From the NCBI GenBank assembly GCA_963692865.2, contig OY843592.1, forward strand, positions 2,592,001 through 2,656,000: DNA of 64,000 nt, in the 5' to 3' direction. Under the pieces are notes generated by a model that did no database searches, was not told where the DNA came from, and saw only the letters and a program-made list of their open reading frames with translations. Positions 35,244-52,999 of the stretch are shown in pieces. The number at the start of each line of letters is the position of its first letter. The stretch's first letter is position 1. The stretch is from a bacterium (GTDB lineage Bacteria; UBA8248). A program made the position numbers and the translations under genes.

Positions 35244-35251
35244 ACCGAACC

Positions 35252-35646
35252 GAGGTTGTTGAAAAAGCCCCTTCACGAAAATCCTTCATTCGCGGAGGCG
35301 GCCTTTGATCGTCATTTCGGCGCACGCCGGAATCCAGAGCCGAGGAGGAAGGCAACAGCACCGGACAGCCCCAAAAACAACAAGACAAAAACAATAAAGC
35401 CAAAACCAAATTCCCTGGATTCCGGCGTGCGCCGGAATGACGGCGGGGACAAGCCCCTGGGAGAAGAAAAGCGGGGTCATCGGATGGCCCTGCGCAGGGC
35501 GCGATAGTTCTGTAGCAAGACAAGCCTTTTGGGTTGTCCTGCCCTCCGTGGTTGTCCTTTGTCAGGACAGGCACGGAGGCCTGTCCCTACGGTGAATAAT
35601 TCAACGATCGGGATTCCCTCCCCGACGAGGGATTTTCAACAGCCCC
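35252..35646. mobile_element. 395-bp MITE-like element with REP cargo
   Basis: Left end GAGGTTGTTGAAAAA, right end TTTTCAACAGCCCC. Direct repeat GAACC at 35247-35251 and 35647-35651. Contains a CGTC-REP pair (35310-35336, 35416-35442) and GTAG-type REPs (35512-35590). Confidence 0.8.
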
Positions 35647-35702
35647 GAACCGGGCGGGCCGCCTGCTCCCGGTGATACAAGCCCCCGTGGAACGGCCCCG
35701 AA

Positions 35703-37406
35703 TCAGTCGCCCGCGTCGGGCGGGGGCGCCGTGGCGGCCCCGCCCCGGAAGGACTTCACCGTCCGCGTCCAGCGGGAGGAAAGAACCTCCCGGTCGATGG
35801 GGCAGTCGATGACGTGGACGCCGCCCCCCGCCTGGGATTCGCGGATGGCGCTCGCCAACTCCTCCGCCGACTCCACGCGCCGGCCATGCGCGCCGAACGC
35901 GCGCGCGAGGGCCGGGAAATCGGGGTTGTTGAGCGAGGTGGCGATGTAGCGCTCGCCGAACACGTGTTTTTGCGAGTGCCTGAGCGCGTTGTATTCCCCG
36001 TCGTTGAAAATGAGATAGGTGATGGACAGATCGAGCGCCATAGCCGTGGCCAGTTCGCCGCAGACCATGGTGAAGCTGCCGTCGCCCACGACGGCGCACA
36101 CGGGCCGCTCGGGCGCGCCCAGCTTCGCCCCGATGGCCGCGCCCACGGCGTAGCCCATCGACTGGTAGGCTTCGGAGAGCAAAATGCTTCTCGGGCGGTG
36201 GACGACGAACGCCTGCTCCATGAGCCAGCTCTGGGTGGCCGAGGAATCGGAGACGAAAATCGTATCCGGCGAGGCGTTATCGCGCAGCGTCTTCATCACG
36301 AACAGACCGTGAAAGGGCGGCTCGGCGGGCTGCGCCAGAAACGAACGGAGCCTCTCCTCATAGCGCCTTTTCCCTTCGCGCACGCGGACGTGACCTTCAG
36401 AAAGCGCGGCGTCCTCAGCGTCGGCGATTCTCCTGAGCAGGCCATCGAGCGCGGGCTTGAGATCGCTCACCAGGCCTTTCGACGCCGGGTAATTCCGCCC
36501 GACCCGCTCGGGGTCGATGTCTATCTGCACGAGATTCTTCGGCATCGGCGCCTTGAAGTAGAAGGTGGCGAACTGCCCGAAACCCGTGCCCAGAGCCAGA
36601 CACAAATCCGCCTCTTCGAGCATCTCCTCACAGCCCAGGAAATGCGCGAGGCCGAAGGAGAGCGGATCGGCTTCGGAGAGAATCCCCCGCCCCTTCACGG
36701 AAGTGACGACGGGCGCGCCCAGTTTCGACGCCAGAAGCTGCACCTCTCTCTCGCAGCGGGCGGCCACCACGCCGTTTCCCGCGTATATCACGGGGCGCCT
36801 GGCGGCCAGGAGCGACTCCGCGATCTCATCGAGCGCGCGCTCGTCCACGGGCGGCGGGGGCGGCGGCCCCTCGAACTCGGGCGCGATGATCACCCGCTCC
36901 TCTTCGGCTTGAAAGAGGTTCGCCTTCATCACCACCTGCGCCGGGCCGGGCCTTCCCGCCGCCGCCCAGCGGAACGCCGCCTCGACGGCGGGCGCGATGC
37001 CCGCGACCGAATCGGGCGTGAACGCCTTTTTCACGCAGCCCGCGAGCGCCTTTTCCATGTCCACGTCGTGGATGGCGCTTCTGTCCCGCATGTTGTCTGC
37101 GAGCGTGGCCGTCACCGCGACGACGGGCGCCGCGTCCTCGAATGCGGAGCGGAGCGCGGTGGCGACGTTCGTGCCGCCCGGCCCCGGCACGGTGAAGACC
37201 ACGCCCGTCCTGCCTGAAACCTTGGCGTAGCCGTCCGCCGCGAAGCCCGCCCCCTGCTCGTGGCGCGTGACGACGGGCGTCGCGCCAGCGCCGTCGATCA
37301 TCGCGTCGTAGACCGGCAGCGTGAGCGTGCCCGGAATGCCGAAAATGTATTCCGCGCCGTTCGCCTGAAGCGCATCCAGCAGGACCTGCGATCCGTTTCG
37401 CGCCAC
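35703..37406 (-). CDS. Thiamine diphosphate-dependent enzyme (acetolactate synthase-like superfamily)
   Basis: FGIPG, RHEQGAGFAADGYA, GPGGTN, GDGSF...NDG ThDP motif; GGAG RBS before GTG 37406. Confidence 0.9.
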   Translation of the reverse strand: MARNGSQVLLDALQANGAEYIFGIPGTLTLPVYDAMIDGAGATPVVTRHEQGAGFAADGYAKVSGRTGVVFTVPGPGGTNVATALRSAFEDAAPVVAVTATLADNMRDRSAIHDVDMEKALAGCVKKAFTPDSVAGIAPAVEAAFRWAAAGRPGPAQVVMKANLFQAEEERVIIAPEFEGPPPPPPVDERALDEIAESLLAARRPVIYAGNGVVAARCEREVQLLASKLGAPVVTSVKGRGILSEADPLSFGLAHFLGCEEMLEEADLCLALGTGFGQFATFYFKAPMPKNLVQIDIDPERVGRNYPASKGLVSDLKPALDGLLRRIADAEDAALSEGHVRVREGKRRYEERLRSFLAQPAEPPFHGLFVMKTLRDNASPDTIFVSDSSATQSWLMEQAFVVHRPRSILLSEAYQSMGYAVGAAIGAKLGAPERPVCAVVGDGSFTMVCGELATAMALDLSITYLIFNDGEYNALRHSQKHVFGERYIATSLNNPDFPALARAFGAHGRRVESAEELASAIRESQAGGGVHVIDCPIDREVLSSRWTRTVKSFRGGAATAPPPDAGD

Positions 37407-37626
37407 CTGAAACTCCTCCGGTTCCCTCGAAGATACAAAACCCGCCAAAGCTAGGCGGCATCCGCGCGCGTGTCAACTTCCACGCCCGTTTGCGCGCGGA
37501 GGGGGGATGGACTACCTTCTCGACTGTTTCATATCGGCAGACATCGTGGGGAACGAATGGATAAGTAGCCGGGGTTCGCGGGAGGCGGAGCCGACTGTTC
37601 GGGGTTGCGGAAAAAGCGCCTGACAA

Positions 37627-37914
37627 GGGTTGTTGAGAAAGTCCTGACGAACGAAGTTTGGCGCAACCGATGAAAGAGCAAGAACCACTCCCCCCTTGAG
37701 GGGGAGTCGATGAAGCCGAGCGGTTTGTGCGAAGGCTGAATCGGTGGGGGGTAAAACGTGTTTGATCGCCATTACGAATTATACCCCCCACCGAATCGCT
37801 TCCGGGCTTACGCCCTCAGCTCTTCGACTCCCCCTCAAGGGGGGAGTGAAATCTCCGCCCTCTTAGGTCGGCTCCATACGCAGAATCACGAAATCAGGGT
37901 TTTTCAACAGCCAC
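37627..37914. mobile_element. 288-bp MITE-like element carrying a family D palindrome pair
   Basis: Ends GGGTTGTTGAGAAA and TTTTTCAACAGCCAC. GACAA duplicated at 37622-37626 and 37915-37919. Cargo is an inverted pair of ACTCCCCC..GGGGGAGT hairpins (37686-37709, 37825-37848). Confidence 0.75.
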
Positions 37915-37978
37915 GACAAAGGGGGGTCGACAAGGGAGGTAGAAGCTATGCCCCCGACGAGGGATTATTGACGGCCCC

Positions 37979-38097
37979 GTAGGGACAAACCCCTCCTCGG
38001 GGTTGTCCTGCCCTCCGTGGTTGTCCTTTGCCAGGGTTTCGGACAGGCACGGAGGCCTGTCCCTGCGGTCGCCGCTCAGGGAGTTTTTCAACGGCCC
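37979..38097. repeat. GTAG-type REP doublet followed by a right TIR
   Basis: GTAGGGACA...GGACAGGCACGGAGGCCTGTCCCTGC (37979-38066), similar to 35512-35590; then TTTTTCAACGGCCC. Confidence 0.7.
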
Positions 38098-38119
38098 TCA
38101 TCGGTGGGATTCGGCCTCC

Positions 38120-38230
38120 CTCATCCCGAGTAGGCGCGCTTGCGCGCCGTATCGAGGGACGGACGAACCCCTTCGATACAAACGCTCTTTTCTCAGTCGC
38201 GTTTGACCTTCGGCGGCTGCTCAGGGTGAG
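38120..38230. repeat. Family C REP-like inverted pair
   Basis: 38120-38161 is identical to 32619-32660; 38169-38230 is the uninterrupted version of 52455-52724. Confidence 0.8.
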
Positions 38231-38305
38231 GAAGATGGGGGGGACGGCAGAACCTGCCCGGGCACGGCGAGGCGCAATACCGGTTCGCGGCCGGGCGGCG
38301 AGCGC

Positions 38306-39070
38306 ATGATGGAGAAATCGATGTTCAGCAGGCAAGCGGTAGACGCACTCAAGGAGGCGGAATCGGTGGCCGTCCTGACCGGGGCGGGCGTGAGCGCGGA
38401 GAGCGGCGTGCCCACCTTCCGGGGAGCGGGCGGCCTCTGGCGCGAGTACAGCGCCACCTCGCTGGCGACGCCCGAGGCCTTTCGCGCCGACCCCAGGCTC
38501 GTCTGGGAGTTTTACAACTACCGCCGCGAGGCGCTCGCGCCGCTCTCCCCCAACCCGGGACATTACGCCATCGCCTCGCTGGAAGAGCACGTCAAGCGCT
38601 TCACCCTCATCACGCAGAACATCGACGACCTCCACCGCCTCGCCGGGACGAGGGAGATCGTGGAGCTTCACGGCAACATCTGGCGCGTCCGCTGCACGAA
38701 CCCGGGCTGTGAGCGCTACACGCTCGCGTGGGAGAACCGGGACGTGCCGGTCGACCCCCTGCCCCCTCATTGCGAGGCGTGCGAGAGCCTTCTGCGGCCC
38801 CACGTGGTGTGGTTCGGGGAGATGCTCGACCCCGAGCAGTTGCGCCGGGCGCTGGTTGCGGTGGATGATTGCGATTACCTGATCGTGGCGGGCACGTCCG
38901 CCGCGGTGCAGCCTGCCGCCTCGATGCCCATGACGGCCTCGCGGGGCGGCGCGTTCGTGCTCGAGGTGAACCCCGAGCCGACGGACATCAGCCCGTACAT
39001 GAGCGAGGCGGTGCAGGAGCCCTCGGGCGCCGCCCTCCCCCGCCTGCTCGAAGCGGCCTTAGGAGGATAG
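38306..39070 (+). CDS. cobB: NAD-dependent protein deacylase (sirtuin, CobB-like)
   Basis: GAGVSAESGVPTFRG, TQNIDDLH, ELHG, RPHVVWFGE; the Y..R in FYNYRR is typical of desuccinylases. Confidence 0.92.
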   Translation: MMEKSMFSRQAVDALKEAESVAVLTGAGVSAESGVPTFRGAGGLWREYSATSLATPEAFRADPRLVWEFYNYRREALAPLSPNPGHYAIASLEEHVKRFTLITQNIDDLHRLAGTREIVELHGNIWRVRCTNPGCERYTLAWENRDVPVDPLPPHCEACESLLRPHVVWFGEMLDPEQLRRALVAVDDCDYLIVAGTSAAVQPAASMPMTASRGGAFVLEVNPEPTDISPYMSEAVQEPSGAALPRLLEAALGG

Positions 39071-39072
39071 CG

Positions 39073-40335
39073 ATGGCGCGGCCCAGGCTTACGGCGGTGC
39101 GCGGCGTGAGAGACATTCTGCCGGAGGAATCAAAACACTGGCATGGCGCCGAACGCCTGGCGCGCGAGATTTTCACGCGCTACGGCTACGGAGAGATTAG
39201 AGTGCCCGTGTTCGAGCGCACGGAGCTTTTCGCGCGCGGCATCGGCGAGGAAACCGACATCGTCTCCAAGGAGATGTACACCTTTGAGGACAAGGGCGGC
39301 GACTCCATCACCCTCCGTCCCGAGGCGACCGCCTCGATTTGCCGCGCCTACGTCCAAAACGGCCTCCACAACCGCGCGAGCGTCTCGAAACTCTTCTGCA
39401 TCGGCCCCATGTTCCGCTACGAGCGTCCCCAGGCGGGCCGCCTGCGGCAGTTCCACCAGATAGACGCCGAGGTGTTCGGCTCGGTGGACCCGGCGGTCGA
39501 CGCCGAACTCATCGTGATGCTCATGGAATTTCTGGACGCCATGGGGGTCGAGGGGCTGGCGCTCCAGATCAACAACCTGGGCGATGCGGAATGCCGCCCG
39601 GCCTACGCCGCCGCCCTCCAGGAGTATCTCAAGCAAGAAACGAAGCACCTGGGCGCCGAAACCGCCGAGCGGGTCGAGCGCAACCCGCTTCGTTTTCTCG
39701 ACAGCAAGGACCCGGATCACCAGGAGATCATCGCGCGCGCGCCGAGGATAGACGCCTTCTGGAACGAGCAGTGCGGTGAGCATCTGGAGAGCGTATGCCG
39801 CTTTCTGGAAAGCGCGGGCGTCGCGTATGAGATAAACCCGAGGCTCGTTCGCGGCCTCGACTACTACTGCCTCACCGTGTTCGAGGTGACGAGCGAGAGC
39901 CTCGGAGCGCAGAACGCGGTGTGCGGCGGGGGGCGCTACGACGGCCTCGTGGAGGAGTTGGGCGGCCCACCCACGCCGGGCATCGGCTTCGCGGTCGGCG
40001 TGGAGCGGCTCCTGCAACTGGCGGGCGAAAAGGCCCCCGCCCCGAAAGAAGAAGCGCAAGTCTACATCGTCGCGCTCGGCGACGCCGCGCAGGACCAGGT
40101 ATTCGAGCTCGCCACCGAGTTGCGCGCGCAGGGGGTTCGCACCGAACGCTCCTTCGGCGGGGGCAGCATGAAAAGCCAGATGAGGCGCGCAGACCGCTCG
40201 GGCGCGGCTTTCGTGCTCCTGCTCGGCGAGGATGAGGCCGCCAAAGGGGTGGTGAGCGTCCGCCACATGAACGAGAGCCGCCAGACCGAGGTGAGGCGCG
40301 AGGAAATATCGGATTATATTAAAGAGAATTTATAG
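39073..40335 (+). CDS. hisS: Histidine-tRNA ligase
   Basis: GGAGG RBS; LRPEAT, FRYERPQAGRLRQFHQ, LVRGLDYY, GGGRYDGL. Confidence 0.97.
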   Translation: MARPRLTAVRGVRDILPEESKHWHGAERLAREIFTRYGYGEIRVPVFERTELFARGIGEETDIVSKEMYTFEDKGGDSITLRPEATASICRAYVQNGLHNRASVSKLFCIGPMFRYERPQAGRLRQFHQIDAEVFGSVDPAVDAELIVMLMEFLDAMGVEGLALQINNLGDAECRPAYAAALQEYLKQETKHLGAETAERVERNPLRFLDSKDPDHQEIIARAPRIDAFWNEQCGEHLESVCRFLESAGVAYEINPRLVRGLDYYCLTVFEVTSESLGAQNAVCGGGRYDGLVEELGGPPTPGIGFAVGVERLLQLAGEKAPAPKEEAQVYIVALGDAAQDQVFELATELRAQGVRTERSFGGGSMKSQMRRADRSGAAFVLLLGEDEAAKGVVSVRHMNESRQTEVRREEISDYIKENL

Positions 40336-40365
40336 GTTAAATAACAATATCTTACAAATTGTTGT

Positions 40366-41313
40366 TCAAGTAGATTCAGAATCTTTGCAGAGCCATTCAT
40401 ACACGCTGACGACCCCCACTTCGCTGAATCCCAGACTTTGATAGAAGGCGCGCACATCCTCGTTATCGCCGGAAACGATGAGTTCGAGCGCCTCCGCGCC
40501 GCAATCCCGCGCTCTTTGGGCAGAGGTCTGGATCAGCAGGCGGCCCAGCCCTCTTCTGCGGTGAGCGGGCATGACGCCGATGTCGGGAATGTAGACGGCT
40601 TTATCGCCCGCAGCCAACCGGTTCGGGTCGACGGCCAGTATCGCCATCCCCGCGCCCTCGGGGTTTCCCGATTCGCCATTCAAAAACTCGAGGATGAACG
40701 AATTCTCAGGTCTAGTGTCCGGCGCGTCGTACCAGGCGGTGATCGTCTCGACCGTATGGGGCATGAAATTCCACATGTTCTCGAAAATCCCGTTGAAAAG
40801 CTCTGCAAGGTACTGCGCGTCGCCGGGCAGGGCCGCCGCTCGAATCCCGTAGCCCGAGGGCAGGAGCGGCTCCCCCAGCTCTTCGAGCGAGTCGTGCTTC
40901 AGGAAGCGGAGGTCGTGAACCTTCCGCCCCCCGCTCAGATACACGAAACGCCCCGGGAGCGAGACGGGCAGATACGCCCAGATGCCGCCCAGGCCGTTTT
41001 CCCGGGCCTCGGCGAGGGCCGCCTCGAGCAGATGACGCGCGTAGCCCGCCTTCCTGGCTTCGGGCCGCACGTAGAGCGCGTCGATGCAGGCCCTGCCCCG
41101 CGCCCGCGCCTCCCTGTTCACCACCATCCGGCAATAGCCCGCCGGATGCTCGTCACTCCCCTCGCCCGGCCAGGCCAGCCAGACCTTCGTGCCCGGCGCG
41201 CCGAACCCGCCGACCACCTCCTCGCGCGAAAGCCCGAAAGCCTCCGCCGCCAGGGCGGTCAGCGCATGGGTGTGCTGCGGCCCGACGGGCTCGACCCTAG
41301 CCGCGATGGACAT
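40366..41313 (-). CDS. Tandem GNAT acetyltransferase
   Basis: Two acetyl-CoA motifs: VRPEARKAGYA and VMPAHRRRGLG. Confidence 0.8.
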   Translation of the reverse strand: MSIAARVEPVGPQHTHALTALAAEAFGLSREEVVGGFGAPGTKVWLAWPGEGSDEHPAGYCRMVVNREARARGRACIDALYVRPEARKAGYARHLLEAALAEARENGLGGIWAYLPVSLPGRFVYLSGGRKVHDLRFLKHDSLEELGEPLLPSGYGIRAAALPGDAQYLAELFNGIFENMWNFMPHTVETITAWYDAPDTRPENSFILEFLNGESGNPEGAGMAILAVDPNRLAAGDKAVYIPDIGVMPAHRRRGLGRLLIQTSAQRARDCGAEALELIVSGDNEDVRAFYQSLGFSEVGVVSVYEWLCKDSEST

Positions 41314-41689
41314 GCACCTTCCCTTCGTCGATCATTTTCTCGAATTTTCTCATCAGCCAGCCCCGCACAACGGCCCGAACCGCGGGAACCATAAGCGCGA
41401 AGCCGGCGGCGTCGGTGAGAAGACCGGGCGTGAGCAGCAGCACGCCGCCCACGAGCACCATCGCGCCCTCGACCATCTCGGCGCCGGGGAGGCTCCCCGC
41501 CGCCATTTCCGCCTGGATGCGCGAGAGGGCGTAAAACCCCTGGGTTCTCGCCGCCCACGCGCCGAGCGCGCCCGTGAGAATCACGACCCCCAGCGTAGGC
41601 GCAAGGCCGATGGAGGTTCCCAGATCGATGAGAATCATCAGTTCGATGATGGGGATGAGCGTAAAGAGCAAAAACAGTTTGAAGATCAA
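41297..41689 (-). CDS. fxsA: FxsA family membrane protein
   Basis: IPIIEL...GGVLLLTPGLLTD. Confidence 0.9.
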   Translation of the reverse strand: MIFKLFLLFTLIPIIELMILIDLGTSIGLAPTLGVVILTGALGAWAARTQGFYALSRIQAEMAAGSLPGAEMVEGAMVLVGGVLLLTPGLLTDAAGFALMVPAVRAVVRGWLMRKFEKMIDEGKVHVHRG

Positions 41690-41865: not shown

Positions 41866-41871
41866 TTTCGA

Positions 41872-44262: not shown

Positions 44263-44351
44263 GGGGAGTTGTTGAAAAAGTTCTCCAAGGGTAGTGATGT
44301 CTCGAAGAGCGCCGCCCAATGTGGGAAGGTGGTTTTGCTCCTCGTCTTTGA

Positions 44352-44428: not shown

Positions 44429-44716
44429 TCAAACAATATCCTCATACAAATCAAGCCACTCCGGGTTCCCCTCCTCGATCAGTTCGAGCTTCCATGCCCG
44501 CCGCCAGTTTTTGATGCTCTTGTCACGAACAATCGCGCTCTCCATCGTTTCGTGGCTCTCATACCAGACCAAGGCGTGGACGCCGTAACGCTTCGTGAAA
44601 CTATTCGCCGAACCATTCTTATGTTGCCAGACTCTACGGAGGAGGTCGGACGTAACGCCGATATAGAGCGTGCCGCGACGCTCATTGGCGAGAATGTAGA
44701 CACAAGGCTGCTTCAT
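44429..44716 (-). CDS. Small stand-alone GIY-YIG nuclease
   Basis: CVYIL...LYIGVT.DL.RRV.QH, FTKRY, WKLELIE..NP.W.DL. Confidence 0.9.
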   Translation of the reverse strand: MKQPCVYILANERRGTLYIGVTSDLLRRVWQHKNGSANSFTKRYGVHALVWYESHETMESAIVRDKSIKNWRRAWKLELIEEGNPEWLDLYEDIV

Positions 44717-44741
44717 TTTTCCTGTTTTCTCGGTTTTTGAC

Positions 44742-46296: not shown

Positions 46297-46929
46297 TTGC
46301 CGAACCAATCCGTCGTAGAAGCCACTTACACCTATTGCGTCCACTGAGCCTGGTGCCTGATCGCGACCGGGCGGTTGCGAAATCTGACCGAGCGGGCGGG
46401 CGGGCGCCTCGCCGTCCGCTACCGCGCCTTTCTCCTCTCGCCCGAGCCGGATACCCGCCCGGCGCGCAAGGAGGCCATCATGGGCCACTGGACGATGGCG
46501 AAGAGCCACCCCGGCGGCGAGGGGATCAACCACGAACTCATGGCGCGCCGCGAATTCCCCTACCCCCATTCCACCCCCGGCGCTATCGCGATAAAAGCCT
46601 TCGCCGCCCAACTCCCCGAGCGCGAGGGAGAGTACCTCGAAGCCGTGGAGCGGACGCACCTGGTCGAGTGCAGGAACATCGACGACGCCGACGTGCTCGT
46701 TGCCGCCGCCGAGCGGCTGGGGGCGGAGCCCGCGATGATGCGCGAGGTCATGGCCGACCCGGATATGGAAAAGCGCGTCCGGGCGGATCACATCGAGGCC
46801 GTGAACGCAGGCGTACAGTCCACGCCCACGGTCGATTTTTCCGGCAGATACAGAATCACGGGCGCGCAGCCTATGGAGGTTTTCGTCAAAACCTTCGAGC
46901 GCGCCATGGCCGAGACTGCGGACGCCTAG
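46297..46929 (+). CDS. DsbA/FrnE-like thioredoxin-fold protein, predicted selenoprotein (UxxC)
   Basis: Extending ORF 46375 upstream gives TTG 46297 ...TYTYCVH-TGA-AWC-LIATGRL. The TGA (46345-46347) sits at the first Cys of the CPWC motif. C-terminal GVQSTPT cis-Pro motif. Confidence 0.8.
46361..46380 (+). promoter_or_regulatory. Putative bacterial SECIS hairpin
   Basis: TCGCGACC-GGGC-GGTTGCGA stem-loop; its G-initiated apical loop begins 21 nt after the in-frame UGA. Confidence 0.65.
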
Positions 46930-46936
46930 CCCCACC

Positions 46937-47833
46937 ATGCGCGAACGCCGGCGTCTCCGGGCAATCATACCCTTGTCGGCGGTGCTGTTGCTGACGGCGG
47001 GGTGCGAGAACGTCCGCGCCCTCTTCACCCCCTGGGAGAAAAAGGAGCCCGGGGCCCAATCCAACCCCCCTCAGAAGGAAAAAACGGAGGAGCCGCATTT
47101 TTTCCGCGTTTTGACGCTTCCCGACTACGGCACGGCGAAGGAGGCGTATGACAAGACGGCCATTCTCGGGATTCCCTTCCACAAGGTGGCCCGGGAGTTC
47201 AAGGAAAAAGCGGTCGCAATCCGCAATGCGCAGCCTTCCGAGTTGAGCGTCGGCGCGCGGGCCGAGGCGCGGGACTTGAAGCTCGGGGCGACGTCGGGAA
47301 TCATCGAATCGGACGAGGGGTTTTCGATTCTCCAGAAAACGACGAGCGCGCTTTATGAACGCGCCCTGAGGCTCATGGAGAAGAAAAGAGACGAGGCCGC
47401 GCTCGAGCTCATCCGCCGCGATCTGGAAATCAACCCCGGAAAGGTGGAGGCCTGGCTCGCCCTGGCGAAGATGATGGACGAGGCGGGCGACCCGGATGAG
47501 ACGCTCGCCGCTTACGAGAAGGCCCGCGAACTCGCCCCCGAGGACCCCGTCGTCTCCAACAGGTACGCCAAATACCTGGTCTCCCGGCGCCGCTACGAAG
47601 AGGCGGAAAAGGCGCTCCGGGCGGCGGAGAGATTATCGCCCGAAGACACAGGGGTTCTCCTGAACCTCGCCTCCCTGCTCGTCTACCTGAACAAGGAGCC
47701 GGATTTCGCATCGCGCCTCATCGAGCGCGGCTCACGGGGCGACCCCGGCCGCGAGGCGTGGTACCGCCTCTCGGGCGTGATCCGGAAAAGGCGGGAACTC
47801 GGCATCGCGCCGAAAGCGAAGGGGGTGAATTGA
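46937..47833 (+). CDS. Lipoprotein with a parvulin-like region and TPR repeats
   Basis: Lipobox LTAGC; LKLGATSGIIESDEGFSIL resembles a rotamase; TPR-like helices ending in xP. Confidence 0.7.
   Translation: MRERRRLRAIIPLSAVLLLTAGCENVRALFTPWEKKEPGAQSNPPQKEKTEEPHFFRVLTLPDYGTAKEAYDKTAILGIPFHKVAREFKEKAVAIRNAQPSELSVGARAEARDLKLGATSGIIESDEGFSILQKTTSALYERALRLMEKKRDEAALELIRRDLEINPGKVEAWLALAKMMDEAGDPDETLAAYEKARELAPEDPVVSNRYAKYLVSRRRYEEAEKALRAAERLSPEDTGVLLNLASLLVYLNKEPDFASRLIERGSRGDPGREAWYRLSGVIRKRRELGIAPKAKGVN
47763..47831 (+). repeat. 69-bp direct repeat, copy 1 (3' end of the TPR gene)
   Basis: 68/69 identical to 48810-48878. Confidence 0.9.
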
Positions 47834-47919
47834 GGGATCAAGCGCGCCCGAGAAGGGAGCGATTGCGCTTTTTGCGTAAGGACACAACCTGTTCTTACAA
47901 AAGGCGGTACGGTTTTGTT

Positions 47920-48218
47920 CGTCATTCCGGCGAAAGCCGGAATCCATTTGCGGATGCGGGTGAATGAACGGCGGCGTATCATTCCCCGCCGATGCGCAGG
48001 AACCCTGATGAAAGGCAAAAGGCATAAAAATGGATTCCGTCGAACCCTCCCGCCTTGGTCGGCTCCGACACAGGAATGACGGTGGTTTATCCGGAGCGGT
48101 TTAAGAAATTTCCAGGAACAAAAGATAGGCGACGAATACCGGGCGGACACGCCGCTCCGCCCCTACGGAACCCTGTTAATTGAATTGAAGACGTAGGGAC
48201 AGGCCCCTGTGCCTGTCC
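47920..48218. repeat. CGTC-REP doublet plus GTAG-REP pair
   Basis: CGTC units at 47920-47946 and 48031-48081 (loop expanded); GTAG units at 48141-48166 and 48193-48218. Confidence 0.8.
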
Positions 48219-48344
48219 GAAGTCGCAACCTGCGGGGCAGTCCCGGGGAGGAGCCGCAACTCCAAATGTTTGACATCAGATCCCAAAAAGGAATAATACG
48301 GAAATACCTGCCCCCGCCGTCCGGCGGGATTTAAGGGGAAAGCG

Positions 48345-48590
48345 ATGGCGCAGGGCATTATCGAGATCTTTGCGGAGTGGGATTCCGAGTCGCGCGTCTG
48401 GGTGGCGGAAAGCGAGGACGTGCCGGGGCTCGTAGCGGAAGCGCCCACGCCGGAGGAGTTGAATGAGAAGCTCCGCCTCCTCATTCCAGAACTGCTGGAG
48501 TTGAACGGCCATCTTCTGGACGGCGCCGCCCGGCCAAGACAGGCGAAAATGCGCTTCGGCGCGTTCGTGCAAGAAGTCCAGTTCGCCTGA
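48345..48590 (+). CDS. HicB-like antitoxin (DUF1902 type)
   Basis: AEWDSESRVWVAESEDVPGLVAEAPT.EEL...LIPELLELN; TTGACA-N16-AATAAT upstream at 48270-48297. Confidence 0.85.
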   Translation: MAQGIIEIFAEWDSESRVWVAESEDVPGLVAEAPTPEELNEKLRLLIPELLELNGHLLDGAARPRQAKMRFGAFVQEVQFA

Positions 48591-48593
48591 TCG

Positions 48594-48787
48594 GTGGGAA
48601 ATTACACGAGGAACTCAAGAAACTCCTGCGCGAGAACGGATGCTCCTTCGAGCGGCAGGGCTAGGGCGAGCATGAAATCTGCTACGGCCCGATAACATCA
48701 AAACGATTCCCTGTCGACAACGACATCAAGTCTCGCCACACGGCCAATGCGGTACTCAAACAAGCGGGTCTCGATAAAGCATTTTGA
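48594..48787 (+). pseudogene. HicA-family toxin pseudogene
   Basis: EELKKLLRENGCSFERQG*GEHEI...IKSRHTANAVLKQAGL; TAG at 48662-48664 and no canonical in-frame start. Confidence 0.8.
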
Positions 48788-48809
48788 ATGAACCTTGCGG
48801 TATGGCTTC

Positions 48810-48878
48810 ACCGCCTCTCGGGCGTGATCCGGAAAAGGCGGGAACTCGGCATCGCGCCGAAAGCGAAGGGTGTGAATT
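48810..48878 (+). repeat. 69-bp direct repeat, copy 2
   Basis: 68/69 identical to 47763-47831. Confidence 0.9.
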
Positions 48879-49108
48879 AGGGGGTTTAGAGGCGACCTTG
48901 CGCCTATAAATACGAGGCATAAAAAATCACTCCTCCCTTGGGGGCTGTTGAAAAGCCCTTGGCTCTGCGATTGGGCGTGTGGATATTGTCCGACCGGGAT
49001 GGGGAGAACCCGGGATGTCGGGACGCAGGAACTGCCCCTAACCGGAGAAACTCCCGCTTGGGTCCATGGCGGATGATCGACGCCTTGTCGAACCCTGTCG
49101 CGAAGCCT

Positions 49109-49765
49109 TTATTTGGCTTTTCCCGATTTATAGCTTATCAACTCTCCCGAGAAATCTCTCATTCTGGTCTTGTGCTCCCACTGATAAAACACGCTCGTCT
49201 TGAGAACGGGAGAAATGAACATATCCCTTTTGACGTACTCAGTCTCGCAGAAAATATGATAGGTATCGAAACTGCCCGCTGGCACGCTGACTCGAACCTG
49301 CTCCTTGACTTCACAATCCATTTTATTGCTCCAACTTCTGCCCGCGTTTCTGCCCGCGTCATTTGACCCCTTTGTTTCGTAGCGCCACTTCTTGCCGACT
49401 TTCAGGGGCCAGATTTCACCCTAGATCACTTTGATGGAGCCGGTTCCGCTGCTTCGCCTGCAATTCGTCCACTTCAGGGCTCGCACTGGAGCTCCTATGA
49501 AATCTGCATGGCTATCTATGGTGAAAATACAGCCTAGATTTGACTTGAAAGTAACCGTGGTTTCATCGGACGCCACGAGCGTCTGGGAGTAGTCGACTCG
49601 CCCTGTGCTCCAAGTTAATACGGTCCCGAGGGGCAATGTGGGCTTCGGCATCGGAGCGAGCGCGGCCGATACGGGCTTGATGTCGGCTCCCGACGCCGAT
49701 GGAGTATGGCCAAAGGCTCCGGTTGCGAATACGATCACGAGGCCTGCGACGATGATGCGTTTCAT
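49109..49765 (-). pseudogene. Exported hypothetical protein split by one in-frame TAG
   Basis: ORFs 49421-49765 and 49109-49321 are in the same frame. Read-through gives ...SIKVI*GEIWPLKVGKKWRY...VSVPAGSFDTY. Signal peptide and AGGAG RBS present. Confidence 0.7.
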
Positions 49766-50138
49766 GGAGCGACTCCTTTCTCGGTTAAAAATCCCGGACC
49801 GGGCAAGGCGACATCCCGGGTTCGAATTGACTGGTCATCCCTCGGCGTGATGGCCGCCCGCATTGCGGCGTCTCTCATGGACGAAACTCCTCCCCTTTTG
49901 CGGAGCATGTCGGCCGTATGAGTATCTCGGTCTCTCCCGCTTGTCGTCGACCTCCTGGCGCTCTGCGGGCAGCCCGAAACGGTTCGGCTTCTGTGGCTTT
50001 TGCGATGAATATGATGAGCGGGCATGGCTCCCGGCTTGTCAAACACGAGTGGATGGGCGGGGAGGCCGTCGTTTGAAGACGGCGGGCGAGGAATCGCCCC
50101 CTCGTGTCTTTCTTGCTCTCGGCAAACTTTCCCTCATC

Positions 50139-50498
50139 GGGGCTGTTGAAAAAGTCGGAGAGAGACAATTTGTTTGCAGGGGCCGCATGATATGTCAGCC
50201 ATATATGTCTAACCTACAATGCTATCGCGTTTTGCGTAGCAGGACAGGCACGGAGGCCTGTCCCTACGGTAGGCGGTGTTCTCTTCTCGGTACCCACGGC
50301 GAATTTGGTTTTCGTTCGTCATTCCGGCGAAAGCCGGAATCCATTTGCGGGTGCGGGTGAATGAACGGCGGCGTTTCATTCCCCGCCGATGCGCAAGAAC
50401 CCTGACGAAAGGCAAAAGGCGTAAAAATGGATTCCGGCTTTCGCCGGAATGACGGCGGTGGTTAATTCCGAACGAGGAGGGGCTTTTTCAACAACCCC
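50139..50498. mobile_element. 360-bp MITE-like element with REP cargo (no matching TSD)
   Basis: Ends GGGGCTGTTGAAAAA and TTTTTCAACAACCCC; GTAG REPs at 50176-50267; CGTC pair at 50317-50343 and 50428-50454. Confidence 0.7.
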
Positions 50499-50597
50499 TT
50501 GAGGGTCGGACTTCCCGAGGGGAATGGCCGACGGCAAGGCAAGGACGAAATCCGTTGCCGCGCCGCTAGGGAGAGCTTTTGATTTTCTTAGAATCGT

Positions 50598-50707
50598 CCC
50601 CCCACCGATTCGCTTGCGGGCTTGCGCCCTTAGCTCATCGACTCCCCCTCAAGGGGGGAGTGATTCTTCCTATCTCCTTGGCTGCCAATCCCCCTCAAGG
50701 GGGGAGT
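50598..50707. repeat. Family D palindromes
   Basis: CCCCCACCGA...CGACTCCCCCTCAAGGGGGGAGTG matches about 37783-37848; a second partial hairpin runs to 50707. Confidence 0.8.
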
Positions 50708-50828
50708 AATTTGCAAGCAGTCATCCCCTCCCCCCTTGGCCCCCCGCGCTCTTATGCGTCATAATGCCGCCATTCTCGAAGCACGCGAAGTTTCAAGCTG
50801 AACCGCTAAATCATGAGAGGGCAACCGC

Positions 50829-52181
50829 ATGAGCGCCGAGCTTTTGATCAAGAACGCGAAAATCGTGACGCCCACGGACACCTACGAGGGCTGCGTCTAT
50901 GTGGAGGGGGGGCGGATCGCCGCTATCACGCAAAAAGCCGAGGCGAATGCGGCGCGGGAGATTGATGCGGAAGGCCGCTTTCTGCTGCCGGGCATGGTGG
51001 ATGAGCACGTGCACATGATGGACCCGGGCTTCACCGACCGCGAAGACTGGACGACGGGAACCGAGGCGGCGGCCAGGGGCGGCATCACCACCGTGATCGA
51101 CCACCACCGGAGCGACCCGCTCGTCTACACGCGGGAGATTCTGGAGGATAAAACCGCCTACATCGACTCGCGCTCGGTGGTGGATTTCGGGCAGTTGGGG
51201 GGCCTGGACGTGGACAACCTGGAACACCTGCGCCCCATGTGGGAAGGCGGCGCGCTGGGCTTCAAGGGCTTCATGTGCGATCTGCACGGCGTGCCGGATC
51301 TCTCAGAAGGCGTGCTCTTGAACATCATGCGCGAGGTCAAATCCTTCGGCGGCACGGTGATGCTGCACTGCGAGAGCGACTCCATCCTCAATAAAGCAAA
51401 AGAAAAAATCGACGCCGATAACCGGACGGACTACATGTGTATCACCGACTGGCGAACCCCCGAGAGCGAATACGTGGCGACGCTGGACGCCGTGGCGCTC
51501 GCTGAACTCACCGGCTGCACCGTGCTCGTGGCGCACGTGAGCCAGCCCGTTCTGCTCGAGGCCATCCAGGCGGCGCGCGGGCGGGGCGCGCGGATATACG
51601 CCGAAAGCTGCCCCCAGTATTTCTATCTCGACCACTCGCATCTGGAAGAACTCGGGCCGTTCGTCAAGTTCACGCCGGTCATCCGCTCGGCGGAGACGCG
51701 CGAGGGCATGCGCGCGGCGCTCGGGCGCGGCATGGTGGATACCATCGGCACCGACCACTGCCCCTTCCCCCGCCAGCGGAAGGTGGACGGCCTCGAGAAC
51801 ATCCACGAGGCGCCCTTCGGGATACCGGGGGTCGAAACCACGGTGCGCCTGATGCTGAACGCCGTGAGCGAGGGCGTCCTGACCTTGAACCAGATGGTGC
51901 GCGTCTGCTGTGAGCAGCCCGCGCGCGTCTTCAACATCCATCCCCGCAAGGGCTGCATCCAGGTGGGCGCGGATGCGGACTTCATCCTCGTGGACATGGA
52001 GCAGGAAGAGACGCTGCGCGATACGGACATCGTCTCCAAGTGCAAGTGGACGCCGTTCGACGGCTGGAAGGTGCGCGGCGCGCCCGTGATGACGCTCGTG
52101 CGCGGCGAGGTCGTCATGGAAGACGGCGAGGTGACCGGAAGAGCGGGCTACGGCGAGACCGTCGAGCGGGCGGGGGGGTGA
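50829..52181 (+). CDS. Cyclic amidohydrolase (allantoinase/dihydroorotase-like)
   Basis: DEHVH, AAARGGITT, GFKGFM, HCE, GTDHCP. Confidence 0.88.
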   Translation: MSAELLIKNAKIVTPTDTYEGCVYVEGGRIAAITQKAEANAAREIDAEGRFLLPGMVDEHVHMMDPGFTDREDWTTGTEAAARGGITTVIDHHRSDPLVYTREILEDKTAYIDSRSVVDFGQLGGLDVDNLEHLRPMWEGGALGFKGFMCDLHGVPDLSEGVLLNIMREVKSFGGTVMLHCESDSILNKAKEKIDADNRTDYMCITDWRTPESEYVATLDAVALAELTGCTVLVAHVSQPVLLEAIQAARGRGARIYAESCPQYFYLDHSHLEELGPFVKFTPVIRSAETREGMRAALGRGMVDTIGTDHCPFPRQRKVDGLENIHEAPFGIPGVETTVRLMLNAVSEGVLTLNQMVRVCCEQPARVFNIHPRKGCIQVGADADFILVDMEQEETLRDTDIVSKCKWTPFDGWKVRGAPVMTLVRGEVVMEDGEVTGRAGYGETVERAGG

Positions 52182-52196
52182 GGGGCGAACGCGACC

Positions 52197-52431
52197 GGGG
52201 CTGTTGGAAAACCCCGCCTCGCCTGGAATTGACCAGCGCCGTCATTCCGGCGAATGCCGGAATCCAGAGCCGAGGAGAATGGCGACGCTCCGGTTTTTCA
52301 TCCCCTACTCATTGGCGGGAATACGGAAGAAATCAAAATACAAAGGCAAAATCCCTGGATTCCGGCATGCGCCGGAATGACGAACAAAACCACCCCTCCT
52401 CGTAGTGACAGCCCCGAGGAGGGGCCGTCAC
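52197..52431. repeat. Left TIR, CGTC-REP doublet and abutted variant ends
   Basis: GGGGCTGTTGGAAAA at 52197; REPs at 52240-52266 and 52356-52382; GTGACAGCCCC-GAGGA-GGGGCCGTCAC at 52405-52431. Confidence 0.7.
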
Positions 52432-52495
52432 CGCAAAACCATCAAACCCCCTTCCTCGCCCTGAGCAGCCGCCTTAGGTCAAACGCGACCGAGAA

Positions 52496-52699
52496 GGGGC
52501 TGTTGAATAGCCCCGTTCCGGGGTCGGGCGGACACGCAGGTCCGCCCCTGCATTTCGTTTCGCAGAGGTTGGCAGGTCAGACATATATGTCTGACATATC
52601 ATGCGACCCGTATTGTGAAGGCGACAAGCCAGGACCGCATGATATGCGGCCCCTACGGTGAGATGCCGATCTGCTCGCAAGGGGTTTTTCAACAGCCCC
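52496..52699. mobile_element. 204-bp MITE-like element inserted in a family C repeat
   Basis: Ends GGGGCTGTTGAATA and TTTTTCAACAGCCCC; GAGAA duplicated at 52491-52495 and 52700-52704; cargo of GTAG-type hairpins. Confidence 0.85.
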
Positions 52700-52999
52700 G
52701 AGAAAGGAGCGTTCGTATCGAAGGACGAAATTCGCGCCCGCCGCAGAGATGCGCTGTGTTTGACCCTCCCTCCCCCCGGTCGGGTCAAACCTTCGATACG
52801 TCCTTCGACAGGCTCAGGACTGCTCAGGACGAGGATTCGGGGCGCTCGTCGGGACTGGCCACCGCCGTCGTTCAAAGGCGAAAAAAGCCCTCCCGAAAGC
52901 GCGCATTTCCCCGCATTTGCGTTGGATGGATGGCGGGTATGACCCGCATTCCGGCTGGACAATCGGCTCGTCTGAAGGCGCAGGAATTTCTGGAAAATT

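What the first reader, a model, noticed from the sequence alone, without database searches (positions are those of the whole stretch)
35247..52704. Transposase-less TIR 'shells' that carry interchangeable REP cargo
Seen: about 14 copies of an end motif GGGGCTGTTGAAAA or its reverse complement. Left ends start at 32319, 32414, 35252, 37627, 44265, 48941, 50139, 52197 and 52496; right ends finish at 35646, 37914, 38097, 50498 and 52699. Three pairs are flanked by exact 5-bp direct repeats, all starting GA: GAACC (35252-35646), GACAA (37627-37914) and GAGAA (52496-52699). The interiors are not copies of one another. Each is a different mix of unrelated palindrome families (CGTC-REP, GTAG-REP, family D). 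Established: classical MITE families share their internal sequence, and REPs are normally linked to HUH (RAYT) enzymes that make no TSD. Inference: a DDE-type transposase acting in trans (the ends are reminiscent of IS5/IS1182-like elements) moves variable REP assemblies. The alternative is that REPs preferentially colonise these shells. Either way this is a two-tier mobile system.
Basis: partly seen in the sequence, partly recalled or inferred. Interest (0 to 1): 0.82.

Follow-up and report, generated by a model that had tools for sequence, protein, structure and literature searches.

The report
IS1182-derived MITEs built around REP hairpins
The repeated 14-base motif is the end of an IS1182-type jumping gene, and the short 'shells' are its gene-less miniature copies, which carry other small palindromic repeats inside them and mostly land in hairpin loops.

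Summary
The motif occurs 13 times in the window (0.5 expected) and 982 times in the 4.15-Mb genome. Inward-facing pairs 60-1000 bp apart are strongly enriched (257 pairs). Of these, 57 have exact 5-bp flanking duplications, against 4.8 by shuffled pairing.

The autonomous partner exists elsewhere in the genome: a 1514-bp IS1182-family IS in two identical copies, with the same ends and a 5-bp TSD.

The shells are therefore IS1182 MITEs. Interiors are not random:
- 139 of 257 fall into 28 ordinary families.
- Canonical end pairings keep their TSD (26 of 46). Odd combinations mostly lack one (18 of 170), so most are probably chimeras formed in place.

REPs really are cargo. For the main GTAG REP, 128 copies lie just inside an end and 13 just outside. 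Within families, REP arms are swapped exactly at GTAG/CTAC.

The REPs have their own enzymes: RAYT genes flanked by GTAG REPs, and an SsnA-like GIY-YIG gene flanked by CGTC repeats.

Insertions favour hairpin loops, including palindromes at the centre of other MITEs.

Verdict: a new variant of a known kind, of moderate interest.

The parts
32319..32332 (+). Solo left-type end (exact motif). Its subterminal sequence is unique in the genome, and no partner end follows.
32414..32427 (+). Left-type end of end type 3 (48 copies). It is preceded by CCCCCCCTTGTC, which is half of the preferred target palindrome. A GTAG-type REP follows at 32447-32474. No right end was found.
35252..35646 (.). 395-bp paired element with a GAACC TSD (35247-35251 and 35647-35651). 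Its mosaic interior holds an inverted pair of CGTC/SRM palindromes (35311-35333 and 35419-35441) and a family-D GTAG REP (35565-35590). No full-length relative exists in the genome.
   Evidence: absent from the orthologous site in G002, G006 and G008
37627..37914 (.). 288-bp paired element with a GACAA TSD. The left end is degenerate and the right end is type 1 (52 copies). The interior is the CACTCCCCCCTTGAGGG inverted-repeat module (37686-37708 and 37826-37848).
   Evidence: interior shared at 80% or more with 5 elements and at 50-80% with 19
37950..37978 (-). Probable decayed right-type end. It resembles the type-27 end at 35633-35646, with its subterminal CCCTCGTCGGGG. Identified by eye only.
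   Evidence: sequence read directly; not found by the motif scans
38085..38098 (-). Solo right-type end (2 mismatches) next to a family-D REP at 38041-38066.
44265..44278 (+). Solo left-type end (2 mismatches), followed by a CGTC/SRM palindrome at 44354-44379.
44429..44716 (-). 95-aa GIY-YIG ORF (SsnA-like), flanked by CGTC/SRM palindromes at 44354-44379, 44743-44765 and 44877-44899. It is the likely cognate nuclease of the 'CGTC-REP' cargo.
48941..48954 (+). Solo left-type end (exact motif), preceded by CACTCCTCCCTTG, which is a target half-site.
50139..50498 (.). 360-bp paired shell without a TSD (TCATC on the left, TTGAG on the right). It is a chimera of end type 7 and end type 0, a combination seen once in the genome. 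The interior holds a GTAG REP variant, a family-D REP (50242-50267) and a CGTC/SRM pair (50318-50340 and 50431-50453).
52197..52210 (+). Solo left-type end of type 0 (59 copies), with a CGTC/SRM pair at 52241-52263 and 52359-52381. No right end was found.
52496..52699 (.). Canonical 204-bp MITE (end types 8 + 4, a 16-member family) with a GAGAA TSD. It sits in the loop of the palindrome AAACGCGACC-GAGAA-AGGAGCGTT. The interior holds the GGGCGGAC..GTCCGCCC REP (52526-52547) and a GTAG REP doublet (52572-52656).

Best explanation
SHOWN.
- The motif is the terminal inverted repeat, GGGG[C/T]TGTTGAAAAA, of an IS1182-family insertion sequence. The IS is 1514 bp long, has one 480-aa DDE transposase gene and makes a 5-bp target duplication.
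- Two identical copies lie elsewhere on the same chromosome. Relatives are present in many copies in sister genomes.
- The short elements in the window are its non-autonomous derivatives (MITEs) or remnants of them.
- The genome holds about 980 such ends. They fall into about 25 recurrent 'end types', each a TIR plus a 30-60 bp subterminal module.
- Canonical MITE lineages pair two different end types around a central hairpin repeat. That repeat is a RAYT-type GTAG REP or REP doublet, a CGTC/SRM palindrome of the SsnA type, or a C-run/G-run palindrome.
- Canonical lineages have several to about 16 copies each, and most keep a TSD.
- Insertion favours hairpin loops and C-run/pentamer/G-run sites. 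These sites include the central palindromes of other MITEs.

INFERRED.
- The IS transposase moves the canonical lineages as whole units in trans, with their REP cores.
- Diversity arises in four ways:
  (a) replacement of REP arms exactly at GTAG/CTAC, probably by the REPs' own machinery or by conversion between copies;
  (b) exchange of end modules at REP boundaries;
  (c) nesting of one MITE in another;
  (d) juxtaposition, deletion and decay of ends in place. This last route gives most of the one-off shells, which lack TSDs.
For: - Motif excess.
- Orientation bias of neighbouring ends.
- TSD: 57/257 exact against 4.78 by shuffled pairing.
- Autonomous IS: two 1514-bp copies with TTGAG/CTCAA TSDs; Pfam DUF772 + DDE_Tnp_1_6 + DDE_Tnp_1; NF033551 at 345.5 bits, above the 270 cut-off; two full-length open copies plus fragments.
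- Relatives at 76-82% aa identity in unnamed MAG chromosomes have the same ends. They measure 1510-1529 bp (one truncated copy of 1365 bp); 17 of 38 have an exact 5-bp TSD and 30 of 38 lie in a C-run/G-run context.
- Relatives at about 60% aa identity on Sinorhizobium and Bradyrhizobium plasmids, annotated as IS1182 family, have GGGGCTGTTGAAGA and GGGGTCGTTGAAAA ends with exact 5-bp TSDs.
- Families: 139/257 elements in 28 families.
- End types and the combinatorial pairing matrix, with no homotypic pair.
- TSD by class: 26/46 canonical, 13/41 middling, 3/28 rare, 9/93 and 6/49 untyped.
- Cargo asymmetry, inner against outer side of an end within 120 bp: R1 128 v 13, R1b 97 v 11, CGTC/SRM 99 v 19, R3 48 v 8, R5 50 v 2, R8 46 v 8.
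- REP-arm cassettes and frame switches at GTAG/CTAC within families.
- Minimal 70-147 bp MITEs with one central palindrome.
- Hairpin targets: 16/57 sit in the loop of a stem of 7 bp or more, against 2.3% of random sites.
- Nesting: 116 same-orientation neighbours within 120 bp, at least 47 with the inner end preceded by CCCCCCTTGAG, CCCCCCTTGTC or CCCCCTGACAA.
- Empty orthologous sites in G002, G006 and G008, and an independent nearby insertion in G011.
- Genus-restricted expansion: 413 exact 15-mers here, 31-338 in 13 of 18 sister genomes, 0 in 5 sisters and 0-2 outside the genus.
- RAYT homologues flanked by the same REPs.
- SsnA-like gene flanked by CGTC palindromes at 3 of 3 loci.
Against: - No transposition was observed. 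Laying contigs of four runs gave only repeat-induced joints and no clean empty-site joint.
- Only 22% of pairs have an exact TSD, and 148 of 257 have 3 or more mismatches in the 5-bp flanks. Many shells may never have moved as units.
- Mean pairwise identity within the two largest families is only 0.83 and 0.885, so much of the amplification may be old.
- The 5+6 pairing has 7 copies and none has an exact TSD.
- Homologous recombination in shared REP cores would give the same apparent GTAG/CTAC breakpoints as enzyme-mediated exchange. Step (a)/(b) is therefore unresolved.
- The hairpin preference is partial: 41 of 57 TSD-bearing insertions are not in a stem of 7 bp or more.
- At the second orthologous site the whole intergenic repeat content differs between species, so no clean empty site could be read.
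Confidence: 0.78

Rival explanations
1. REP colonisation is the main driver. The shells are ordinary small MITEs whose hairpin-forming centres are repeatedly invaded and overwritten by RAYT-type GTAG REPs and SsnA-type CGTC palindromes. Cargo diversity would then reflect the activity of those single-strand enzymes, not capture by the DDE transposase.
For: - Within one constant frame the REP arms differ as cassettes that begin or end exactly at GTAG/CTAC.
- Minimal MITEs carry a single central palindrome, while larger relatives have that palindrome 'opened'.
- RAYT and SsnA-like genes with cognate flanking repeats are present.
- Five or more different subterminal modules abut the same GTAG REP.
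Against: - Each cassette variant of the 7+10 family exists in several TSD-bearing copies. Variants were therefore amplified after they formed, which needs the DDE route or conversion.
- One RAYT homologue has an internal TGA and another is partial.
- No REP insertion event was caught against an empty frame of the same lineage at an orthologous site.
- This rival is not exclusive of the best explanation.
Confidence: 0.35
2. Any two inward-facing ends define a mobile unit, so the transposase routinely moves arbitrary, variable REP assemblies, and most heterogeneous shells have transposed as such.
For: - Some non-canonical combinations do carry exact TSDs: 1+4 in 3 of 4 copies, 2+4 in 2 of 4, and the unique 35252-35646 element with GAACC.
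- In another IS1182 member, IS1272, an alternative IR mobilises a passenger gene as TnSha1 (passages of PMC4923244).
Against: - Rare and untyped combinations have exact TSDs in only 18 of 170 cases, against 26 of 46 for canonical pairs.
- 118 of 257 elements are single-copy, so there is no evidence that they ever multiplied.
- Outer pairs that enclose nested elements have TSDs in 2 of 35 cases.
Confidence: 0.2
3. The motif is not a transposon end. It would be a host-factor binding site, terminator-like hairpin (GGGGC..GCCCC) or structural motif of BIME-like REP clusters, and the flanking repeats would come from palindromic context.
For: - The motif with its following bases can form a short stem (GGGGC / GCCCC; logo).
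- It is confined to intergenic repeat clusters.
Against: - The same sequence bounds a transposase-coding IS, with TSDs, in this genome, in sister genomes and on rhizobial plasmids.
- The TSD excess survives a control that keeps the flanks' composition.
- Intact target palindromes carry the pentamer once.
- Sites are empty in relatives.
Confidence: 0.02
4. The elements are Tn3-family-derived miniature elements (TIMEs). This was suggested by the GGGG termini and the 5-bp TSD, both features recalled from memory.
For: GGGG start and 5-bp TSD.
Against: - The conserved end is only about 19 bp.
- The coding element bounded by these ends is IS1182 family, not Tn3.
- No Tn3-type partner was sought beyond this.
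Confidence: 0.01

Closest known systems
IS1182-family insertion sequences of Alphaproteobacteria (annotated copies on Sinorhizobium fredii and Bradyrhizobium plasmids)
   Same: About 60% aa identity to the transposase. Nearly the same termini (GGGGCTGTTGAAGA, GGGGTCGTTGAAAA). Length 1497-1513 bp. Exact 5-bp TSDs.
   Different: Here the IS coexists with roughly 980 ends and at least 257 paired miniature derivatives in one genome. I did not test whether the rhizobial hosts carry such MITEs.
IS1182-derived MITEs (ISMac2-related, 160 and 169 bp, Methanosarcina acetivorans; table passage of PMC3852290)
   Same: Short non-coding elements with the IRs of an IS1182-family partner.
   Different: Those are single homogeneous families of 7-14 copies. 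Here there are many lineages with REP or SRM cores, module exchange and nesting.
IS1272 / TnSha1 (IS1182 family, staphylococci; passages of PMC4923244; abstract of PMC5678879)
   Same: Insertion into hairpin or inverted-repeat targets. An IR-like sequence lets the transposase move extra DNA.
   Different: IS1272 is reported to cut in the stem, delete part of the target and make no TSD. Here the insertion is in or near the loop, with a 5-bp TSD.
REPINs and RAYTs (PMC3116915 and PMC2817692; search listing and start of abstract only)
   Same: GTAG-tagged palindromes occur as inverted doublets. RAYT homologues are flanked by their cognate REPs.
   Different: More than half of the copies of the main REP lie just inside DDE-type TIRs. 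The carrying units have TSDs, which HUH transposition does not make (the latter point is established knowledge, recalled).
REP dimers embedded in longer palindromes in Anabaena variabilis and Halothiobacillus neapolitanus (PMC3733652, section 7 read in full)
   Same: REP dimers are bracketed by inverted repeats, and no REP-free copies of the bracket were found. By eye, the H. neapolitanus bracket (GGGaaGCTT-GAAAaACC...) resembles the present TIR.
   Different: There the bracket was read as an insertion target, and no IS partner or TSD was reported. The resemblance was not tested here.
REP-targeting insertion sequences (Tobes and Pareja 2006, as cited in PMC3733652; ISPpu9, abstract start)
   Same: An IS that lands preferentially in extragenic palindromes.
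   Different: Those belong to other IS families (IS3 and IS110 by recall). Here the targets are largely palindromes carried by the IS's own MITEs.
NTS/SRM repeats and SsnA GIY-YIG ssDNA nucleases (PMC11893778, passages)
   Same: The 'CGTC-REP' CGTCATTCCGGCGAAAGCCGGAATCC matches the published NTS pattern CGTCATTCCCGCGMAVGCGGGAATCYRG in form. A 95-aa GIY-YIG gene is flanked by it at 3 of 3 loci.
   Different: Here about a third of the copies (99 of 319) lie just inside IS1182-type ends. Nuclease activity was not tested.

Membership tests
IS1182 family (autonomous partner, outside the window) | Transposase matches the family model above its curated cut-off | tested here: met
   NF033551 at 345.5 bits against a cut-off of 270. 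Pfam DUF772, DDE_Tnp_1_6 and DDE_Tnp_1.
IS1182 family (autonomous partner, outside the window) | Single transposase ORF bounded by terminal inverted repeats, with a length in the family range (about 1.3-2 kb, recalled) | tested here: met
   1514 bp, one 480-aa ORF, ends GGGGCTGTTGAAAAACCCC / GGGGTTTTTCAACAGCCCC.
IS1182 family (autonomous partner, outside the window) | Some members prefer palindromic or hairpin targets (Siguier 2015, as quoted in PMC4923244) | tested here: met
   30 of 38 IS copies in relatives lie between a C-run and a G-run. 16 of 57 MITEs lie in the loop of a stem of 7 bp or more, against 2.3% of random sites.
MITE | Short, non-coding, with TIRs matching an autonomous IS of the same genome | tested here: met
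   257 pairs of 60-1000 bp. The same 15-19 bp ends as the IS. Only the terminal 50 bp or less are IS-like.
MITE | Target-site duplication of the same length as the IS | tested here: met
   57/257 exact 5-bp repeats against 4.78 expected. The IS copies have 5-bp TSDs.
MITE | Multi-copy families that share internal sequence | tested here: inconclusive
   139/257 elements fall in 28 families, and 118 are singletons at 80% reciprocal coverage. The singletons are mosaics of shared modules.
MITE | Presence/absence polymorphism at orthologous sites | tested here: met
   The ComEC/TPP-enzyme intergenic site is empty in G002, G006 and G008. Only one site was resolved cleanly; the second was not.
REP / REPIN with RAYT (cargo) | GTAG-tagged palindromes, with a RAYT gene flanked by the same REPs | tested here: met
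   A RAYT homologue at C1:1531607-1532146 is flanked by 10 R1 REPs. A partial one at C1:861626-861928 is flanked by R8. The Pfam Y1_Tnp model itself found nothing in this genome.
NTS/SRM repeats with SsnA (cargo) | CGTCATTCC..GGAATC hairpin motif flanking a small GIY-YIG gene | tested here: met
   PF01541 at 55.3 bits. 3 of 3 loci are flanked on both sides within 200 bp. The motif was compared by eye with the pattern quoted.
Tn3-derived miniature elements (TIMEs) | About 38-bp Tn3-type IRs and a Tn3-family transposase partner (recalled) | tested here: not met
   Conservation ends after about 19 bp. The partner is IS1182 family.

The most novel reading that the evidence does not exclude
In this genus a DDE (IS1182) transposase has become the main disseminator of repeats that belong to other enzymes, namely RAYT-type REP doublets and SsnA-type CGTC hairpins. 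These repeats ride as the cores of MITE frames. The cores are exchanged as cassettes at GTAG/CTAC. The palindromes carried by the MITEs are also the transposase's preferred landing sites. The population therefore nests into itself, a self-made safe haven that lets about a thousand ends build up in a 4-Mb genome.
Probability: 0.3. Interest if true: 0.75.

Novelty: new variant of a known kind. Interest (0 to 1): 0.52.

Why it matters
REPs, REP mosaics (BIMEs) and MITEs are usually treated as separate kinds of small repeat with separate enzymes. Here one genome shows them physically combined. More than half of the copies of the main GTAG REP, and about a third of the CGTC/SRM copies, lie just inside IS1182-type ends. 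The carrying units bear DDE-type target duplications.

If the transposase really spreads these cores, there are three consequences:
- REP copy number and distribution need not reflect RAYT or Ssn activity.
- The old observation of REP dimers bracketed by unexplained palindromes in other bacteria gets a concrete explanation that can be tested.
- The system offers a natural series of frames and cores for testing what an IS1182 transposase needs at its ends and in its hairpin targets.

Practically, these elements break short-read assemblies of this lineage, because contigs end in them.

Tried and rejected
- Tn3-derived origin. This was considered because of the GGGG ends and 5-bp TSD, and dropped once the IS1182 partner was found.
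- 'No RAYT in this genome'. Pfam Y1_Tnp found nothing in G000 and only weak hits in 11 of 23 genomes of the genus. A RAYT protein taken from a sister genome then found three homologues in G000. The absence was a false negative of the model. A second Y1-like ORF from G006 found nothing in G000.
- 'CGTC repeats lack an enzyme and the GIY-YIG link is new'. The link is already in print as the Ssn family.
- Passenger-gene unit 48941-50498. Its flanks resemble the two halves of one target, but imperfectly. The inner segment of about 900 bp (49084-49982) is a separate 3-copy repeat that is not bounded by these ends. Its ORF has no Pfam match.
- A long TSD (about 30 bp) at 35252-35646. The two flanks are about 70% alike by eye but are not in register for a duplication. 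This was left unexplained.
- Read evidence. The look-up of sequencing runs gave four runs of one study that hold 79-87% of the words, and twenty small-share runs, mostly labelled sponge metagenome, which I did not lay. No habitat is claimed. The four laid runs are contigs that break in the repeats. The listed joints link different repeat copies, and no joint across 35252-35646 or 52496-52699 was among those shown; 155 more joints were not shown. No conclusion was drawn on mobility.
- The second orthologous site (51900-53300) has wholly different repeat content in G003 and G005, so no clean empty site could be read.
- 'Same insertion, different interior' in G005 and G003. The junctions match but the contigs end inside the repeat, so this is only a hint.
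- Literature. These searches found no description of REP doublets inside DDE-type MITEs: 'IS1182' + 'MITE'; 'repetitive extragenic palindromic' + 'insertion sequence' + 'target' + 'MITE'; 'IS1182 family' + 'palindromic'; 'REPIN' + 'RAYT' + 'MITE' + 'terminal inverted repeats'. Subscription journals and ISfinder were not searchable. Supplements are closed and I did not ask for them. The additional files of PMC3733652 and the supplementary data of PMC11893778 may list this lineage or such brackets.

Full report
**The observation**

The motif GGGGCTGTTGAAAA, with up to 2 mismatches, occurs 13 times in the window. Shuffles gave a mean of 0.51. The end at 37627 needs three mismatches. The three 5-bp direct repeats (GAACC, GACAA, GAGAA) are exactly where stated.

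The window is G000:C1:2592001-2656000 of a 4.15-Mb, 61% G+C genome in 8 contigs. The elements lie between ordinary chromosomal genes: ComEC, a TPP enzyme, HisS, an alcohol dehydrogenase and an amidohydrolase.

**Genome-wide test of the ends**

The genome holds 982 matches. A logo of 981 oriented ends gives GGGG[T/C]TGTTGAAAAA[G/C]CCC, after which conservation stops. The 12 bases outside the end are C-rich.

Neighbouring ends are strongly ordered. Of 292 +/- neighbours, 254 lie within 600 bp, against 43 of 289 -/+ neighbours. Among the 257 inward-facing pairs of 60-1000 bp, 57 have an exact 5-bp repeat immediately outside both ends. The mean over 200 shuffled pairings of the same flanks was 4.78. 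Shifting the assumed boundary destroys the signal. These are therefore real terminal inverted repeats with a 5-bp target-site duplication.

**The autonomous partner**

A search for longer pairs with matching flanks found two pairs of exactly 1514 bp. They are identical to each other over the element. Each carries one 480-aa ORF with Pfam DUF772, DDE_Tnp_1_6 and DDE_Tnp_1. The ORF scores 345.5 bits on NCBIfam NF033551, IS1182 family transposase, whose cut-off is 270. The genome has these two open copies plus fragments.

Relatives at 76-82% aa identity occur in many copies in several unnamed MAG chromosomes. They have the same ends and measure 1510-1529 bp (one copy is truncated to 1365 bp). An exact 5-bp TSD is present in 17 of 38, and 30 of 38 have a C-run to the left and a G-run to the right.

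More distant relatives (about 60% aa identity) are annotated as IS1182 family on Sinorhizobium fredii and Bradyrhizobium plasmids. They end in GGGGCTGTTGAAGA and GGGGTCGTTGAAAA and have exact 5-bp TSDs. The IS is thus an ordinary member of an alphaproteobacterial IS1182 subgroup. The system is 'transposase-less' only within the window.

The MITE interiors are not decayed IS. Only the terminal 50 bp or less match, and 0 of 257 elements are more than 40% IS-like.

**How heterogeneous are the interiors?**

At 80% reciprocal coverage the 257 paired elements form 146 groups. Twenty-eight groups have two or more members (139 elements; the largest have 17, 16, 10, 10, 8, 8, 8, 7 and 6). The other 118 elements are singletons.

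For the window elements:
- 52496-52699 is a typical member of the 16-copy, 204-bp family.
- 37627-37914 shares at least 80% of its interior with 5 other elements and 50-80% with 19.
- 35252-35646 and 50139-50498 have no full-length relative but are mosaics of modules found in dozens of other elements.

Clustering the 50 bp behind each end gives about 25 recurrent end types (59, 52, 49, 48, 41, 37, 36, 35, 27 ... copies) and 285 singletons. The pairing matrix is combinatorial. It has favoured partners (4+8: 15; 7+10: 14; 0+2: 10; 5+6: 7), many minor combinations and no homotypic pair.

The decisive point is the TSD rate by class:

| Class of end pairing | Exact 5-bp TSD |
|---|---|
| Four favoured pairings | 26 of 46 |
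| Middling combinations | 13 of 41 |
| Rare typed combinations | 3 of 28 |
| Pairs with one untyped end | 9 of 93 |
| Pairs with two untyped ends | 6 of 49 |

Within the favoured class the rates are 8/15, 10/14 and 8/10, but 0/7 for the 5+6 pairing. So the classical lineages look transposed as units. Most one-off shells look like ends brought together in place by adjacent or nested insertion, deletion or recombination.

**REPs as cargo**

Several palindrome families recur inside the elements. A directional test separates cargo from mere neighbourhood. I counted copies that lie within 120 bp on the inner side only, or the outer side only, of an end:

| Repeat | Inner side only | Outer side only | Total copies |
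|---|---|---|---|
| R1, main GTAG REP | 128 | 13 | 239 |
| R1b | 97 | 11 | 157 |
| CGTC palindrome | 99 | 19 | 319 |
| R3 | 48 | 8 | 99 |
| R5 | 50 | 2 | 124 |
| R8 | 46 | 8 | 126 |

Paired shells make up 1.7% of the genome but hold 30-47% of these copies.

Minimal MITEs of 70-147 bp consist of two end modules around one central palindrome. Larger ones carry REP doublets or 'opened' palindromes.

**Exchange of cores and frames**

In the 17-member 7+10 family the frame is constant, but the REP arms come in at least three versions. The versions replace each other exactly at GTAG/CTAC. Each version is present in several copies with TSDs.

In the 4+8 family most copies are uniform. The variants either carry a different arm cassette or switch to another end module exactly at CTAC.

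It also shows that the new combinations were later amplified. Whether the exchange is enzyme-mediated or is homologous recombination in the shared core cannot be told from sequence.

**The REPs' own enzymes**

The Pfam Y1_Tnp model found no RAYT in this genome. That was a false negative. A RAYT protein from a sister genome finds three homologues here:
- an open one at C1:17508-18005;
- one with an internal TGA at C1:1531607-1532146, flanked by ten copies of the main GTAG REP;
- a partial one flanked by the GGGCGGAC..GTCCGCCC REP.

The 'CGTC-REP' has the form of the NTS/SRM repeats recently tied to SsnA, a GIY-YIG single-strand nuclease (passages of PMC11893778). A 95-aa GIY-YIG ORF lies in the window at 44429-44716 (PF01541, 55.3 bits). 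It and its two paralogues are each flanked on both sides by this palindrome (3 of 3 loci). The cargo thus belongs to two other known repeat-enzyme systems.

**Targets and nesting**

Thirty-three of the 57 TSDs are TTGAG/CTCAA, GACAA/TTGTC or TTCTC/GAGAA. These are the loops of three recurrent palindromes.

Sixteen of 57 insertions lie in the loop of a stem of 7 bp or more, against 2.3% of random positions. Many others lie at CCCCCC-TTGAG-GG sites that are the ends of another inverted-repeat module. Hairpin targeting is reported for IS1272 and quoted for other IS1182 members (PMC4923244 passages; PMC5678879 abstract). In those reports there is no TSD.

The preferred palindromes are themselves mostly inside MITE frames (R5: 50 inner, 2 outer). 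There are 116 same-orientation neighbours within 120 bp. In at least 47 of them the inner end is preceded by CCCCCCTTGAG, CCCCCCTTGTC or CCCCCTGACAA. The MITEs therefore nest into each other.

**Mobility and distribution**

At the ComEC/TPP-enzyme intergenic site:
- the sister genomes G002, G006 and G008 have 29-42 bp where the window has the 395-bp element;
- G011 has an independent insertion nearby;
- the closest genomes, G005 and G003, share the window's junctions, but their contigs end in the repeat.

A second site was uninformative, because all repeat content differs between species.

The exact 15-mer occurs 413 times here. It occurs 31-338 times in 13 of 18 sister genomes, 0 times in five sisters and 0-2 times outside the genus. 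Mean identity within the two largest families is 0.83 and 0.885, so much of the expansion is not very recent. Laid contigs gave no usable evidence of empty sites.

**Comparison with what is known**

IS1182-derived MITEs are on record (table in PMC3852290). So are REP-targeting ISs, REPINs with RAYTs, and SRM repeats with SsnA. REP dimers bracketed by unexplained palindromes were noted in A. variabilis and H. neapolitanus (PMC3733652, section 7). By eye, the H. neapolitanus bracket resembles the present TIR.

My four literature searches found no description of REP or SRM cores carried in DDE-type MITE frames with cassette exchange and self-nesting. The library lacks many journals and ISfinder, and supplements were closed.

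**Verdict**

The finding is real. Its enzyme assignment is correct. The 'two-tier' idea is partly right. It is best filed as a new variant of known kinds, IS1182 MITEs combined with REP and SRM repeats, and not as a new class. Interest is moderate.

Noticed in passing
window 44429-44716 (-), with palindromes at 44354-44379, 44743-44765 and 44877-44899: A 95-aa GIY-YIG ORF (SsnA-like) is flanked by CGTC-type palindromes. Its two paralogues (G000:C1:1265-1549, and the frameshifted C1:7762-8048) are flanked in the same way. This matches the published Ssn/SRM association.
   Followed up: yes
window 49084-49982; copies at G000:C1:3814412-3815310 (97.9%) and C1:439767-440504 (82%): A segment of about 900 bp is present three times in the genome. 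It carries a 114-aa ORF (49421-49765, -) with no Pfam match. One copy directly abuts a 206-bp MITE. It is not bounded by the IS1182-type ends.
   Followed up: partly
window 35220-35251 and 35647-35683: The roughly 30 bp on either side of the 35252-35646 element are about 70% alike by eye (GGGTCGCCTACACCAGGTGA.. against GGGCCGCCTGCTCCCGGTGA..). Sister genomes without the element have the segment once. The two copies are not in register for a simple long TSD.
   Followed up: no
L061:1136-1714 (-) (G006) and many sites in G000: Residues 91-124 of a sister genome's RAYT hit dozens of intergenic sites in G000. This part of the RAYT ORF looks like a translated REP, that is, a REP inserted in frame in the RAYT gene.
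   Followed up: no
G000 whole genome; genus: The Pfam Y1_Tnp model (PF01797) misses the RAYT homologues of this genome entirely and scores only 22-40 bits in sister genomes. Family-based 'no RAYT' calls in this lineage are therefore unreliable.
   Followed up: yes
window 37686-37848, 50640-50708; genome-wide: A separate inverted-repeat module has ends CACTCCCCCCTTGAGGG...CCCTCAAGGGGGGAGTG and a conserved interior of about 200 bp. It is the commonest landing site of the IS and MITEs. Both IS copies of this genome sit in its left end. Its own origin and enzyme are unknown.
   Followed up: partly
window 34800-53200 in runs X21-X24: Short-read contigs of the runs that hold this genome break at nearly every repeat cluster, and word depth rises 10- to 200-fold there. 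These repeats limit assembly of this lineage.
   Followed up: no
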